A DNA stretch of 25,792 nt. It comes from an uncultured Desulfovibrionaceae bacterium (GTDB taxonomy: Bacteria; Desulfobacterota; Desulfovibrionia; Desulfovibrionales; Desulfovibrionaceae). The notes beneath the pieces were generated by a model, which was given only the letters and a program-made list of their open reading frames with translations, ran no database searches and was not told the DNA's origin. This document shows positions 652-4,016 of the stretch, piece by piece (within the stretch, counting starts at the first letter, position 1; every line of letters starts with the position of its first letter). The stretch spans positions 1 through 25,792 of the forward strand of contig CAMTOM010000001.1 in NCBI GenBank assembly GCA_947074125.1. Reading direction: 5' to 3'. The translations under genes were made by a program, and so were the position numbers.

Positions 652-680
652 TTGCCTTAACATACATTTCACTGTATACT
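652..680 (+). promoter_or_regulatory. sigma70-type promoter for the yedE leader (predicted TSS about 687)
   Basis: TTGCCT (652-657), 17-bp spacer, TATACT (675-680). Confidence 0.7.
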
Positions 681-731
681 ACTGCTGCTTGATGCTTTTT
701 GCGTCCTGCATCCTACTACAGAGGTAATGGC

Positions 732-839
732 ATGTTTTTCCTGATGAACTGACACAAAGCTGCGCTTCACGGTGTGAAGTGTGTACAGGGGCGTGTGGCA
801 CGTTGGGAAGCTGTTATTTTTCCTCTGCCTTCCTTCTGA
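732..839 (+). CDS. candidate leader peptide: MFFLMN (6 aa) if UGA750 is a stop, or MFFLMN-U-HKAALHGVKCVQGRVARWEAVIFPLPSF (35 aa) if read as selenocysteine
   Basis: SD GAGGT (721-725) lies 6 nt before ATG732. In-frame TGA at 750-752 is followed by a SECIS-like hairpin, and the next stop is TGA 837-839. The uORF is in the same frame as yedE. Confidence 0.35.
750..783 (+). promoter_or_regulatory. bacterial SECIS-like hairpin downstream of an in-frame UGA
   Basis: UGACACAAAGCUGCGCUUCAC-GGU-GUGAAGUGUG. The stem GCGCTTCAC (762-770) pairs with GTGAAGTGT (774-782) using two G-U pairs. Loop GGU is at positions 22-24 counting U of UGA as 1, as in E. coli fdhF. Confidence 0.4.
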
Positions 840-992
840 TTTGCTCTGCCTATCACAAACGTTCCCCCTTTTCCTGTTCATGTTTCCGGTCATCCTCCTT
901 CTTTGAGAGTTGACCCCTTGATCACTACGCTTTGCCTGTCTTCAGGAAAGATGTCCTGGGCATTCCGCCCACATGTCTTTTATGGAGGAAGT

Positions 993-2087
993 ATGAAAAG
1001 CCTACGCAACATTTTTGTCTCACCAGCAGGCATCATTCTTACAGGAGCCATCATTGGTCTTCTGGCCATATTATTGCAGCATTATGGCAATCCGGGCAAT
1101 ATGGGTATCTGCGTTGTCTGCTTCAATCGCGATATTGCAGGAGGTATCGGTCTGCACCGCGCCTCTGTTGTCCAGTATCTTCGACCGGAAATCATGGGAA
1201 TGCTGCTTGGAGCTTTTGTCGCAGCGCTTTTCTTCGGTGACTTTCGCGCCAGAGGAGGCTCCTCCCCTATCACGCGCTTTTTGCTCGGTGTTATTGCCTC
1301 TATAGGTGCTCTTGTCTTTTTGGGATGCCCCTGGCGCGCTATCCTGCGACTGGCTGGAGGAGACGGCAATGCCCTTTTCGGATTTGCGGGTATTTTTGTT
1401 GGCGTAGGCATTGGCACACTTTTCTTCCGTCAGGGATTTTCTTTGGGGCGCAATACCACACAGCACCGCGCTTCCGGTTTTGTCATGCCACTTATCATGC
1501 TTGCTCTTGTCCTGCTCTATCTTCTCTACCCCCCCATCGCAGGACAGGAAAAAAATGGCGTTCTTTTTTACTCCCTAAAAGGGCCTGGAGCCGCGCATGC
1601 TCCTTTTCTTCTCTCCATTGGCATAGGTCTGCTTGTTGGTTTTCTGGCACAGCGCAGCCGTTTTTGTACCATGGGAGCCATACGTGATGTCATACTGTTC
1701 CGGCACTGGCATCTGGCACTGGGGCTGGCAGCCATGCTTCTGGCAGCGCTTGTGGCAAATGTCGCACTGGGCAGCTTCAAGCCAGGATTTGAAGGACAGC
1801 CCATCGCCCACACCCAAAGCCTATGGAATTTTCTGGGCATGGTCACAGCCGGACTCGCCTTTGCCCTCGCCGGAGGCTGCCCGGGCCGCCAGATCTTTAT
1901 GGCTGGTGAAGGCGATAACGACGCGGCAGTCTTTATTCTGGGATTGATTGTTGGTGCAGCACTGTCACATAACTTTGATATGGCAAGCAGTCCGGCAGGC
2001 ATTGCAGCCAATGGCGCGGTTGCTGCCATCGGTGGTCTGGTTATCTGTCTTCTTATTGGAATAACAAATATAAGGAGGGGCGCATAA
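993..2087 (+). CDS. yedE: YedE/YeeE-family membrane protein (putative selenium/thiosulfate transporter subtype)
   Basis: SD GGAGGA (984-989) supports ATG993 over the track start at 903. The protein is multi-TM and Gly-rich, with motifs GNPGNMGICVVCFNRDIAG, QYLRPEI, LGCP, SRFCTMG and GGCPGRQ. Confidence 0.88.
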   Translation: MKSLRNIFVSPAGIILTGAIIGLLAILLQHYGNPGNMGICVVCFNRDIAGGIGLHRASVVQYLRPEIMGMLLGAFVAALFFGDFRARGGSSPITRFLLGVIASIGALVFLGCPWRAILRLAGGDGNALFGFAGIFVGVGIGTLFFRQGFSLGRNTTQHRASGFVMPLIMLALVLLYLLYPPIAGQEKNGVLFYSLKGPGAAHAPFLLSIGIGLLVGFLAQRSRFCTMGAIRDVILFRHWHLALGLAAMLLAALVANVALGSFKPGFEGQPIAHTQSLWNFLGMVTAGLAFALAGGCPGRQIFMAGEGDNDAAVFILGLIVGAALSHNFDMASSPAGIAANGAVAAIGGLVICLLIGITNIRRGA

Positions 2088-2305
2088 TGACTTCACACAT
2101 TGATACCTGTGGTCTTTCCTGTCCACAACCCGTTCTTTTGTTTCTGACAGCATTGCGCAAAACAGAAGCAAAAGAGTTTGATGTGCTTGTCGATAATGAA
2201 GTCAGCCGAGAAAACGTCACACGCGCTGCCGAAAATCACGGATGCCATGTCACGGCACATCAGGAAGGCAATGACGTCACCCGACTTCATATTGCAAAAA
2301 ACTGA
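2087..2305 (+). CDS. yedF: TusA/SirA/YedF-family sulfur (selenium) carrier
   Basis: 72 aa with N-terminal IDTCGLSCPQP (CPxP motif), followed by VLVDN..SRENV. SD AAGGAGG at 2072-2078; TAATG stop/start overlap with yedE. Confidence 0.85.
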   Translation: MTSHIDTCGLSCPQPVLLFLTALRKTEAKEFDVLVDNEVSRENVTRAAENHGCHVTAHQEGNDVTRLHIAKN

Positions 2306-2321
2306 AATAGCCTTACCCTTT

Positions 2322-2356
2322 TCCTCTCCATGAAAGAATGTCTTTCATGGAGAGGA
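2322..2356. repeat. perfect 16-bp inverted repeat with 3-nt loop
   Basis: TCCTCTCCATGAAAGA-ATG-TCTTTCATGGAGAGGA, 16 nt after the yedF stop. No U-tract follows it on either strand. Confidence 0.9.
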
Positions 2357-2562
2357 TGGCTGGCTTCACAAACAGATACAGCAGCAAATACGGCCATGCT
2401 TACAGAGAGTTACACAATATATCCCTCTCACAAACGCAGTACGGCATTCCATTTTAGAAAAGCTTTCCAGCAACATCAGAGATATACAAATACAGACATA
2501 AGAGATACGCTCTAAAGAGCATAGTATATTTTTCTGAAAAGAATGTTGCCAGAGGAATCAGT

Positions 2563-3132
2563 ATGGATATACTCCAAAAGATACGTACCTTTCTGGGCTT
2601 CTCCCCATCAAGCAGCACGCAGGGGATTTCCAGCAAGGGAATGCTCGTCTTTTCGCATACAGGCGAGGTCATTCGCGCAGAGCAGGTACTTTTGGATGCA
2701 GGCTTTTGTGTGGAAGTCAAAGGCCCACCGCCAGAATTGCGGACAGGGTGCGATATGATCGTTCTTTTTCCTTTACTGGAAGAAGTTGCGATACTTCAGA
2801 CTCTTGCACAGGCAGGACTTACACCGGATCAGACTGCGCCAGTGCAGGATACGCTGCTGGAGCCTGTATCTCTTTTTCACTGTGTTGATTTTGACAAATG
2901 GTTTATGGTGCGTGCTGCCAATATGAAAATTACTGCTGACAAGGAAAGCGGACGCATCGTCAATATTTCTGGAGGCGGATGCCCTGATGTTCCCTATCTG
3001 GCAAACCTTCTCACAGGACTGGATGTACGAACAGCACCAGAACCACGGACACTCGGTCATACTCTTTGCTGTTACAGCCTTCAAAAAGCTTTTGAAGAGC
3101 TGCGTCGCCATCTTCCTAAAGCCATACCGTGA
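2563..3132 (+). CDS. DUF3343 (putative Se/S-carrier)-domain protein with an additional Cys-containing C-terminal domain
   Basis: SD GAGGA (2552-2556). The N-half has F.HT.EVIRAE..L..AG..V...PPP.LRTGCD (DUF3343-like); the C-half has ISGGGCPDVPYLA and TLCCYSL. Confidence 0.75.
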   Translation: MDILQKIRTFLGFSPSSSTQGISSKGMLVFSHTGEVIRAEQVLLDAGFCVEVKGPPPELRTGCDMIVLFPLLEEVAILQTLAQAGLTPDQTAPVQDTLLEPVSLFHCVDFDKWFMVRAANMKITADKESGRIVNISGGGCPDVPYLANLLTGLDVRTAPEPRTLGHTLCCYSLQKAFEELRRHLPKAIP

Positions 3133-4016
3133 AACAGAATTCTTCGTTATGGCTTCTCGCGGGCACACTGCCTGATAGCACAATGCCACTGGAATACGGT
3201 CAGTACGACTGTGATGGCACACATCTCCTGTTGCCTTCTGGCAAACGTGTTTCCATTGTACGCGGCACAGCGGCTCTTGCTGGCGCCACAGCGAGGCTTT
3301 GTCGGCTTTGGGGGCTTCCCCTCCCACAGATTCTCCTGGGAGGCGATGAGGGAAAAGGAAATGGCAGTCGGGAAGTCTATGCCTGTCTTGAAACACATCT
3401 CGCAACAATCAAGCCACAGGGAATAACCTTCCACTATCTTTTTCCCGATGTTGACGGGCACAATCGTGTACTTATGGCACTGCAGGCACTCCAGCCATCC
3501 CCACTCACAGTAGCGGATGCCGGATTCATGTATGTGGCGAAAATGAGTGGCTATGCCAGCAACTATACCATTTTCACACCAGATGCGGGCGAAATGGCTT
3601 TTCTTGCCGATGAAAACGCGCCCCATCCTTTCTACACACGAGGATTTTTATTAGGGAACGAAAGCACGCTTCCAGCCCTGCTCAGCAGAGCGCATTCACA
3701 TGGCAACAGCGCGCAATACGTTCTTCTCAAAGGATCTTCTGACTACATCGCACATGCAGGAGAAATACGACATTGCGTCCATGAACCTTCCGTACCTGCC
3801 ATGGAGTGCATTGGCGGCACAGGAGATCTTATCACCGCCTTTGTCACCGCCTTTCTCATGCGTGGTGACGCTCCAGAGCAGGCCTGTCTCCATGCCGCGC
3901 AACTCAATCGTTTACTGGCTGCTATCGCGCAACCCACACCAGCCACACAGGTGGGAGAACTCCTCACCGCGCTCCCCGAAGCTCTTCAAAGGCTTGAATC
4001 GGAAAAGGCCTCATAA
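3129..4016 (+). CDS. ribokinase-fold carbohydrate-kinase / NAD(P)HX-dehydratase-like protein (divergent)
   Basis: Motifs VADAG, FTPDAGE, VLLKG and anion-hole IGGTGD. GTGA overlap with the upstream gene. Confidence 0.75.
   Translation: MKQNSSLWLLAGTLPDSTMPLEYGQYDCDGTHLLLPSGKRVSIVRGTAALAGATARLCRLWGLPLPQILLGGDEGKGNGSREVYACLETHLATIKPQGITFHYLFPDVDGHNRVLMALQALQPSPLTVADAGFMYVAKMSGYASNYTIFTPDAGEMAFLADENAPHPFYTRGFLLGNESTLPALLSRAHSHGNSAQYVLLKGSSDYIAHAGEIRHCVHEPSVPAMECIGGTGDLITAFVTAFLMRGDAPEQACLHAAQLNRLLAAIAQPTPATQVGELLTALPEALQRLESEKAS

What the first reader, a model, noticed from the sequence alone, without database searches (positions are those of the whole stretch)
652..839. Candidate selenocysteine-sensing leader peptide (uORF with UGA and fdhF-geometry SECIS) upstream of a YedE selenium/sulfur transporter operon
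Seen in the sequence: the promoter TTGCCT-17-TATACT starts a transcript about 306 nt before yedE. Inside it, SD GAGGT plus 6 nt precedes ATG732, giving M-F-F-L-M-N then TGA750. The RNA after that UGA reads UGACAC AAA GCU GCG CUU CAC GGU GUG AAG U. Established: the E. coli fdhF SECIS reads UGACAC GGC CCA UCG GUU GCA GGU CUG CAC C. Both share UGACAC, UU at 17-18, a stem capped by loop G22-G23-U24, and UG at 26-27. Also established: this YedE subtype is the one associated with selenium-utilising genomes. Inference: the ribosome either stops after 6 codons or inserts Sec and runs to TGA837, depending on Sec-tRNA supply, coupling selenium status to yedEF-DUF3343-kinase expression. I know of no described Sec-codon-based leader attenuator in bacteria. 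Caveat: the stem is 9 bp and lacks the bulged U17, and short hairpins arise by chance.
Basis: partly seen in the sequence, partly recalled or inferred. Interest (0 to 1): 0.9.

Follow-up and report, generated by a model that had tools for sequence, protein, structure and literature searches.

The report
Selenocysteine-codon leader before selenium transporter
[quoted passage not shown] It most likely lets the ribosome report whether selenocysteine can be inserted, a kind of regulator I could not find described.

Summary
The loop G22-G23-U24 sits at the same distance from UGA as in E. coli fdhF, which I checked on the MG1655 sequence.

The genome has selA, selB, tRNA-Sec and selD. Its three true SECIS elements (fdhA, selD, NiFeSe hydrogenase) have the same geometry as the leader hairpin.

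The same design was found upstream of yedE in at least 43 distinct sequences from about 10 genera, including D. piger ATCC 29098 and D. desulfuricans. It consists of SD, ATG, 4-6 more codons, an invariant TGA, 12-15 nt, then a 7-bp hairpin with G as first loop base. It occurs once per genome. The flanks are diverged and four of seven stem pairs covary.

New here:
- The first stop in the read-through frame, but not in the other two frames, lies next to or inside an anti-Shine-Dalgarno tract complementary to the yedE ribosome-binding site.
- The uORF arm pairs with the far end of the read-through frame.

Best reading: a leader switch gated by selenocysteine recoding. Its polarity is unresolved. 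No experiment exists and I found no paper describing it. Earlier agents of this scan noted similar leaders in other phyla.

The parts
652..680 (+). Sigma-70-like promoter, TTGCCT-17-TATACT. The predicted transcript start is near 687.
   Evidence: In D. piger ATCC 29098 the equivalent TTGACC-17-TAGGCT is followed 10 nt later by the 5' ends of contigs from two RNA runs.
721..725 (+). Shine-Dalgarno sequence (GAGGT) of the leader reading frame, 6 nt before ATG 732.
   Evidence: An SD-like motif is found at this place in most relatives.
732..752 (+). Leader uORF: ATG plus 5 codons (MFFLMN), then the candidate Sec codon TGA 750-752, followed by C.
   Evidence: TGA is invariant in 43 distinct sequences. 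The uORF is 5-7 codons long and its indels are multiples of three.
762..782 (+). SECIS-type hairpin: 9-bp stem (conserved core 764-770 / 774-780) and loop GGT 771-773 at +22 to +24 from the U of UGA.
   Evidence: covariation. Searches give the same geometry for this genome's fdhA, selD and hysA SECIS elements. One search shows the E. coli fdhF loop at the same positions.
753..839 (+). Read-through frame of 28 codons, translated only if UGA 750 is decoded. It ends at TGA 837-839.
   Evidence: The peptide is not conserved, but the position of its stop relative to the anti-SD is.
797..827 (+). 3' arm of a long hairpin that pairs with the uORF SD/ATG/codons (about 718-748). The SECIS hairpin sits at its tip. 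The arm includes UUCCUCUG 820-827, which lies opposite the uORF SD.
   Evidence: MFE folds. Duplex energy is -24.8 kcal/mol with z = -3.6 against shuffles. The same holds in 73% of leaders.
828..836 (+). Anti-Shine-Dalgarno tract CCUUCCUUC, ending at the read-through stop and complementary to the yedE SD region.
   Evidence: -12.0 kcal/mol with 975-992.
957..971 (+). Short G+C-rich hairpin followed by a T-rich run. It is terminator-like but weak, and its role is unclear.
   Evidence: A better terminator-like hairpin lies at the matching place in the relative G041.
984..995 (+). yedE Shine-Dalgarno GGAGGA (984-989) and start codon ATG (993-995).
993..4016 (+). Regulated operon: yedE 993-2087, TusA/YedF-like 2087-2305, a 61-aa ORF 2330-2515, a DUF3343 Se/S-carrier protein 2563-3132 and a carbohydrate-kinase-fold protein 3129-4016.
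   Evidence: Pfam matches. ORF coordinates.

Best explanation
The yedE operon has a roughly 300-nt leader RNA that acts as a ribosome-read sensor of selenocysteine decoding capacity.

A ribosome starts at the well-placed leader ATG and reaches UGA after six codons. A SECIS-type hairpin lies downstream with its loop at +22 to +24. The ribosome then either terminates through release factor 2, or, if SelB-GTP-Sec-tRNA(Sec) is available, inserts selenocysteine and translates 28 more codons.

That extension runs through the 3' arm of a long hairpin that otherwise sequesters the leader's own ribosome-binding site. It ends exactly at a pyrimidine tract that can pair with the yedE Shine-Dalgarno sequence. 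The fraction of ribosomes that recode UGA therefore decides how often the structure masking the yedE ribosome-binding site is opened or remodelled. This ties expression of yedE-yedF-DUF3343-kinase to selenium status.

Shown by computation:
- the parts and their conservation;
- covariation in the stem;
- one copy per genome;
- the link to yedE;
- the frame-specific placement of the read-through stop.

Inferred:
- Sec insertion and SelB binding;
- the regulatory outcome.

Direction: the geometry favours read-through unmasking the yedE SD, so the operon would be ON when Sec can be made (my estimate about 55-60%). The opposite, ON when Sec is scarce, is what physiology would predict and is not excluded.
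For:
- The Sec machinery is present: selA, selB, tRNA-Sec at 87.9 bits, and a Sec-containing selD.
- The genome's true SECIS elements have stems of 5-7 bp and G-containing loops, which begin at +27 in fdhA, +23 in selD and +21 in hysA. Spacing from UGA to stem is 12 nt in selD and hysA, as in the leader.
- The fdhF loop is at +22 to +24.
- The design is conserved in about 10 genera of Desulfovibrionaceae while the flanks are unalignable. A family DNA search found only the 20-nt hairpin.
- Stem covariation is strong.
- There is a single significant hit per genome, always 120-250 nt upstream of yedE.
- TGA is invariant and an in-frame ATG lies 5-7 codons upstream.
- The hairpin is read in different frames in different genera (LHGVK versus FTxWS), so the constraint is on the RNA, not the peptide.
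- The read-through-frame stop lies -25 to +18 nt from the anti-SD in 19 of 26 leaders (7 of 9 genera), against 1 of 26 and 5 of 26 for the other frames.
- Anti-SD and SD covary: CCCC/GGGG, CCUCC/GGAGG, UUUCUCC/GGAGAAA, plus long extended duplexes.
- The uORF arm pairs with the distal read-through frame.
- All 36 leader-positive genomes have selB. Two yedE genomes without a selB hit lack the leader.
- In D. piger, RNA-run contigs start 10 nt after a promoter -10 box and run through the leader into yedE.
- UGA recoding in E. coli partitions against RF2 and needs selenium (PMC4513850 abstract).
Against: - There is no experimental evidence of any kind.
- The ribosome-masking thermodynamic simulation did not show a consistent change in yedE SD accessibility.
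- In the window the best local partner of the SD (-12.9 kcal/mol) is marginally better than the tract at the read-through stop (-12.0).
- In 7 of 26 leaders the read-through stop is far from the best anti-SD.
- Openness of the read-through frame is not by itself significant.
- In Methanococcus maripaludis yedE mRNA rises on selenium starvation (PMC11097638). This conflicts with the 'read-through turns it ON' polarity.
- The seed sequences were picked with a filter that demanded an SD, an ATG and a TGA.
- The RNA evidence consists of assembled contigs, not reads.
Confidence: 0.7

Rival explanations
1. The hairpin is a SelB-binding operator of the kind found in the E. coli selAB 5' UTR. The SelB-GTP-Sec-tRNA complex binds the RNA and alters expression without any recoding, and the uORF is incidental.
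For: The hairpin is the best-conserved piece and is SECIS-like. SECIS-like elements with a purely regulatory role are known (PMC13449736 citing Thanbichler and Bock).
Against: - The hairpin lies about 200 nt from the yedE SD, not 3 nt as in selAB.
- The SD, the ATG, the in-frame TGA at fixed spacing and indels in multiples of three are all conserved.
- The read-through stop is placed in a frame-specific way.
Confidence: 0.1
2. It is an ordinary leader peptide or structured leader in which TGA is simply the stop codon. It might sense translation or release-factor activity, or be a metabolite riboswitch, and the hairpin would be just part of the fold.
For: The long hairpin and the SD-sequestering complementarity would work with any leader ORF. 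UGA followed by C is a weak stop context (my own knowledge).
Against: - The stop is always TGA, never TAA or TAG, in 43 distinct sequences.
- The hairpin has the loop, size and spacing of this genome's true SECIS elements.
- The element is exclusive to a selenium gene.
- The stop in the UGA frame is positioned, which has no meaning if ribosomes never pass the UGA.
- There is no Rfam match.
Confidence: 0.1
3. The frame 732-839 encodes a small functional selenoprotein of about 35 residues with Sec at position 7.
For: It has a start codon, an SD, a UGA and a SECIS, like any selenoprotein gene.
Against: - The read-through peptides are not conserved in sequence or length (20-51 residues).
- The hairpin is read in different frames in different genera.
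- No Cys homologue was seen.
- What is conserved fits RNA pairing.
Confidence: 0.06
4. The short ORF and the hairpin lie next to each other by chance.
For: Short hairpins and mini-ORFs are common, and the fold z-score of the whole leader is only -1.56.
Against: Conservation, covariation and single-copy occurrence upstream of yedE across genera.
Confidence: 0.02

Closest known systems
Bacterial SECIS elements of selenoprotein genes (E. coli fdhF; this genome's fdhA, selD and NiFeSe hydrogenase)
   Same: An in-frame UGA followed 12-16 nt later by a short stem, with an apical loop carrying G(G/U) at about +21 to +29. The loop position is identical to fdhF.
   Different: It does not sit inside a conserved protein gene. 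The frame around it is a 6-codon leader plus a non-conserved extension. It has a triloop and no bulged U.
SECIS-like element in the E. coli selAB 5' untranslated region (Thanbichler and Bock 2002, as summarised in PMC13449736)
   Same: A SECIS-type hairpin in the leader of a selenium-metabolism operon, used for regulation rather than for making a selenoenzyme.
   Different: The selAB element has no uORF or UGA and acts 3 nt from the SD by SelB binding. Here a translated uORF with UGA is conserved and the hairpin is about 200 nt from the regulated SD.
Leader-peptide (ribosome-mediated) attenuators such as trpL, hisL, ermCL
   Same: A short translated leader whose ribosome position reports the supply of a charged tRNA and selects between alternative RNA structures that control the downstream gene.
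   Different: The signal would be the split between termination and recoding at a stop codon, not stalling at sense codons. It needs a dedicated elongation factor and an mRNA hairpin. The output appears to be ribosome-binding-site masking rather than a clear terminator.
prfB (RF2) autoregulatory in-frame UGA; selenium-dependent nonsense-mediated decay of eukaryotic selenoprotein mRNAs (my own knowledge)
   Same: The fate of a ribosome at an in-frame UGA sets expression.
   Different: prfB uses +1 frameshifting and senses RF2. The eukaryotic case acts through mRNA decay on the selenoprotein's own message.
YedE/YedF/DUF3343 selenium gene neighbourhood (Lin et al. 2015, PMC5322559)
   Same: The regulated genes match this catalogued set.
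   Different: That paper proposes a LysR-type regulator and does not mention a leader, uORF or SECIS upstream of yedE.

Membership tests
Bacterial SECIS element | In-frame UGA within a translated frame (start codon, ribosome-binding site) | tested here: met
   ATG 732 with GAGGT 6 nt upstream, and TGA 750. All 39 sequences that the motif pattern located have an in-frame ATG upstream of the TGA, 5-7 codons away in 37 of them.
Bacterial SECIS element | Stem-loop starting about 11-16 nt after UGA, with the apical loop at about +16 to +37 | tested here: met
   12 nt from UGA to the conserved stem, loop at +22 to +24. In the same genome, loops begin at +23 in selD, +21 in hysA and +27 in fdhA. The fdhF loop is at +22 to +25. 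The numeric range is from my memory of bSECISearch.
Bacterial SECIS element | Conserved G (GG or GU) in the apical loop | tested here: met
   The first loop base is G in all 43 distinct sequences. Loops are GGN, GUU or GUC. Mailhella-type variants have CGUGC.
Bacterial SECIS element | Bulged U in the upper stem (E. coli fdhF U17) | tested here: not met
   The stem is continuous. The bulge is also absent from this genome's selD and fdhA SECIS elements, so it is not defining in this lineage.
Bacterial SECIS element | Binds SelB and directs Sec insertion | not testable with these tools
   Needs a gel-shift assay, 75Se labelling or reporters.
Selenoprotein gene | Conserved protein sequence around Sec, usually with Cys homologues | tested here: not met
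   The read-through peptides differ in length and sequence, and the hairpin is in different frames.
Leader-peptide attenuator | Short translated leader ORF carrying the codon of the sensed species | tested here: met
   A 5-7 codon uORF ending in an invariant UGA. Translation itself is inferred.
Leader-peptide attenuator | Mutually exclusive RNA structures linking ribosome position to a terminator or to the downstream ribosome-binding site | tested here: inconclusive
   Supporting structures:
- anti-SD/SD complementarity with covariation, adjacent to the read-through stop;
- a long hairpin sequestering the uORF ribosome-binding site;
- an alternative long-range helix in Desulfovibrio leaders.

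Against: the masking simulation gave no consistent switch. The terminator-like hairpin at 957-971 is weak.
Leader-peptide attenuator | Expression responds to the supply of the charged tRNA | not testable with these tools
   Needs reporters with and without selenium, and sel mutants.
selAB-type SECIS-like operator | Hairpin immediately upstream (a few nt) of the regulated SD, with no ORF or UGA required | tested here: not met
   The hairpin ends at 782 and the yedE SD is at 984. The uORF and UGA are conserved.
YedE/YedF/DUF3343 selenium operon | YedE-type membrane protein with TusA/YedF-like and DUF3343 genes, in a Sec-decoding genome | tested here: met
   Pfam Sulf_transp, TusA and Se_S_carrier.

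The most novel reading that the evidence does not exclude
Bacteria use UGA recoding itself as a sensor. A dedicated mini-gene with its own SECIS measures the working capacity of the whole selenocysteine pathway (selenium, SelD, SelA, tRNA-Sec, SelB) at the ribosome, and sets expression of selenium uptake and trafficking genes accordingly. This would be the first natural regulatory use of selenocysteine insertion in bacteria. It is also a candidate for the unknown selenium sensor of sulfate reducers, and notes from this scan suggest analogous leaders in other phyla.
Probability: 0.6. Interest if true: 0.9.

Novelty: new variant of a known kind. Interest (0 to 1): 0.8.

Why it matters
How bacteria sense selenium is largely unknown. 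No selenium riboswitch is known to me, and Lin et al. 2015 could only suggest a LysR-type regulator.

A leader that reads out selenocysteine decoding would give a direct, testable mechanism for selenium homeostasis. It occurs in gut sulfate reducers, including the cultured species D. piger and D. desulfuricans. It would add recoding-versus-termination at a stop codon to the known ways a ribosome can act as a sensor.

It also supplies compact natural SECIS modules (UGA plus about 30 nt) and a ready-made selenium-responsive genetic part.

Tried and rejected
- **Rfam scan of 500-1100 at E up to 10:** only noise, no SECIS or leader family.
- **DNA search of the leader in 200 family genomes:** nothing alignable except the 20-nt hairpin in one congener. 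That turned out to be the first clue.
- **Weak genome-wide hits of model R1 (E 0.2-10):** inspected. They are SD-ATG look-alikes, not SECIS elements, so R1 cannot be used to find true SECIS elements.
- **Openness of the read-through frame:** mean 27 codons, but the other frames are as open. I dropped this as an argument.
- **Ribosome-masking partition-function simulation of SD accessibility:** no consistent switch, so it does not settle polarity.
- **Whole-leader fold:** z-score of only -1.56.
- **RNA runs holding the window itself:** none listed. I used the D. piger locus instead. Only assembled contigs were available, so no 3' ends or attenuation products could be read.
- **Small selenoprotein reading:** rejected for lack of peptide conservation.
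- **Alternative mini-ORF ATG 727 to TGA 742:** rejected. Its SD spacing is 1 nt and relatives align on TGA 750.

Full report
**1. Observation**

- TTGCCT 652-657, 17 nt, TATACT 675-680. The consensus scan also found this site: 2 promoter-like sites against 0.6 expected.
- GAGGT 721-725, then ATG 732, encoding MFFLMN, then TGA 750.
- A 9-bp hairpin 762-770 / 774-782 with loop GGT at 771-773.
- The frame stays open to TGA 837.
- yedE begins at 993.

Pfam confirms the operon: YedE-type transporter, TusA/YedF-like protein, a DUF3343 Se/S carrier and a carbohydrate-kinase-fold protein.

I fetched E. coli fdhF from MG1655.

**2. Selenocysteine machinery and genuine SECIS elements in the same genome**

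The genome is a 76%-complete assembly of an unnamed Desulfovibrionaceae genus. It encodes selA, selB and tRNA-Sec at 87.9 bits, and a selD that itself contains an in-frame TGA.

Three true selenoprotein genes gave me local SECIS references:
- fdhA: 7-bp stem, loop GGC from +27.
- selD: 7-bp stem GCUCCAG/CUGGAGC, loop CGGGA from +23, 12 nt between UGA and the stem.
- NiFeSe hydrogenase: 5-bp stem, loop CGUGU from +21, 12 nt spacing.

The leader hairpin (12 nt spacing, loop GGU at +22) lies inside this range. None of the local elements has the bulged U of fdhF.

**3. Conservation**

A DNA search of the leader against 200 family genomes found nothing alignable except a 20-nt exact match. That match proved to be the hairpin upstream of yedE in a congener.

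I then located yedE orthologues and fetched 90 upstream regions. A simple scan showed the same design in many of them: SD, ATG, 4-6 more codons, TGA, 12-18 nt, and a hairpin with a G-first loop. The flanks are diverged.

A covariance model (R1) built from 22 of these gave the following.
- It recovered further, unfiltered examples.
- It gave one significant hit per genome in the own genome and in five relatives. The next-best hits had E above 0.2, and the significant hit was always upstream of yedE.
- With named records it hit 42 of 80 yedE loci, always 120-250 nt upstream on the coding strand. These include Desulfovibrio piger ATCC 29098, D. desulfuricans SFAD67 and D. falkowii.
- Mailhella and some uncultured lineages carry a variant with loop CGUGC.

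Over 43 distinct sequences:
- TGA is invariant.
- The stem is 97.3% paired, against 33-53% for slid partners.
- Four of seven pairs change on both sides.
- No shuffle in 500 reaches the observed covariation.

All 39 sequences that my pattern could locate have an in-frame ATG upstream of the TGA, 5-7 codons away in 37 of them. Indels in the uORF are multiples of three.

The codon before UGA is usually ACC or ACT, and the base after it is usually C.

**4. RNA constraint, not peptide constraint**

In the window's genus the hairpin is read as LHGVK. In Desulfovibrio it is read as FTxWS because the spacing differs by a non-multiple of three. Read-through peptides vary from 20 to 51 residues and are not conserved. 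This argues against a functional small selenoprotein.

**5. Evidence that ribosomes pass the UGA**

For each of 26 leaders I found the segment most complementary to the yedE SD region without reference to any frame.
- The first stop in the UGA frame lies -25 to +18 nt from the start of that anti-SD in 19 of 26 leaders (7 of 9 genera).
- The figures for the other two frames are 1 of 26 and 5 of 26.

In several leaders the stop is inside the anti-SD. In the window the tract CCUUCCUUC 828-836 abuts TGA 837 and can pair with 975-992 (-12.0 kcal/mol). The full-leader MFE uses this pairing.

Anti-SD and SD covary across lineages: CCCC/GGGG, CCUCC/GGAGG, UUUCUCC/GGAGAAA, plus long extended duplexes in other genera.

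A frame-specific placement of the downstream stop makes sense only if translation continues through UGA.

**6. Further architecture**
- The uORF arm (SD, ATG, codons) is strongly complementary to the distal part of the read-through frame. The window gives -24.8 kcal/mol at z = -3.6, and z is below -1.64 in 73% of leaders. This forms a long hairpin with the SECIS at its tip.
- In Desulfovibrio leaders RNAalifold also finds an alternative long-range helix. It joins the segment just after the SECIS to the segment just after the anti-SD, with one GC-to-AU compensatory lineage.

**7. Polarity**

Two readings remain open.
- **Read-through turns the operon ON.** A ribosome that reads through must unwind the 3' arm of the long hairpin and ends on or at the anti-SD. 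This should expose the yedE SD. The geometry favours this reading.
- **Termination or pausing at UGA turns the operon ON.** A ribosome dwelling at UGA would free the post-SECIS segment to form the alternative helix, which also competes with SD masking.

My thermodynamic masking simulation did not discriminate between them.

Physiology points the other way from the geometry. In M. maripaludis yedE mRNA rises 5.3 log2-fold on selenium starvation (PMC11097638). I therefore commit to the class of mechanism at about 0.7 and only lean, at about 55-60%, to read-through giving ON.

**8. Co-occurrence and transcription**
- selB was found in 353 of 401 family genomes, including all 36 leader-positive ones.
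- Two yedE genomes without a selB hit (94% and 84% complete) have no leader, even with the model's filters turned off.
- No RNA run holding the window was listed.
- For D. piger, contigs of two RNA runs begin at the same base. That base is 10 nt after the -10 box of a TTGACC-17-TAGGCT promoter and 34 nt before the leader ATG.
- One of those contigs runs through the leader into yedE. The RNA runs show a gap upstream of that start, which a DNA-like run bridges.
- These are assembled contigs, so this is only suggestive.

**9. What is known**
- Lin et al. 2015 catalogued YedE, YedF and DUF3343 and proposed a LysR regulator. They do not mention a leader.
- A 2026 review of prokaryotic selenoproteomes does not mention one either.
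- The E. coli selAB SECIS-like operator is the nearest regulatory precedent, but it has no uORF or UGA and sits 3 nt from the SD.
- Recoding at UGA competes with RF2 and depends on selenium (PMC4513850).
- Six full-text searches found no description of a Sec-codon leader.
- Earlier agents of this scan reported analogous leaders before yedE or selD in other phyla, some with terminator/antiterminator designs. I did not test those. They are not independent evidence, but they mean this scan has seen the class before on other DNA.

**10. Verdict**

This is a real, conserved cis-regulatory element. It is best explained as a leader switch gated by selenocysteine recoding, and it is apparently undescribed. 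Sec insertion, SelB binding, selenium response and polarity all await experiments.

Noticed in passing
L020, L021, L024, L027, L030, L031, L034 (about 30-320 nt upstream of yedE): In other families of the same order, yedE is preceded not by the UGA leader but by a conserved ORF of 70-97 aa with CPxC ... CPxC ... PDEL-x-CPL motifs (zinc-ribbon-like). No Pfam family scores above its cut-off. It may be an alternative regulator or partner of yedE.
   Followed up: partly
window 2330-2515 (+): A 61-aa ORF between the TusA/YedF-like gene and the DUF3343 gene has no Pfam match.
   Followed up: partly
window 747-753 and the aligned positions in relatives (alignment A5): The codon before the leader UGA is ACC or ACT (Thr) in most genera (AAC in the window), and the base after UGA is C in 30 of 39 sequences. 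This conserved context may tune termination against recoding.
   Followed up: no
window 727-744 (+): An overlapping alternative mini-ORF (ATG 727, MACFS, TGA 742) lies in another frame. Its SD spacing is only 1 nt and it is not conserved in relatives.
   Followed up: yes
G000 contigs C17, C147, C243: The genome's fdhA, selD and a NiFeSe hydrogenase large subunit each carry an in-frame TGA with a downstream hairpin. selD itself being a selenoprotein gives the pathway a built-in positive loop.
   Followed up: partly
L120:942-980 (D. piger ATCC 29098): Promoter-like TTGACC-17-TAGGCT. Contigs of two RNA runs both begin at position 980, suggesting the leader's transcription start.
   Followed up: partly
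L018 (G041), about 330-400 nt upstream of yedE; L029, L030 and L034, about 40-150 nt upstream: Short tandem repeats lie in yedE upstream regions. G041 has units of the CTTGCCTTGTGCTTG type. Other genera have GGGATC or CTCCTGACT repeats. Their meaning is unknown.
   Followed up: no
G028 (L045) and G048 (L199): Two family genomes have yedE but no selB-wing hit and no leader element. Their completeness is 94% and 84%, so the absence of selB is not proven.
   Followed up: partly
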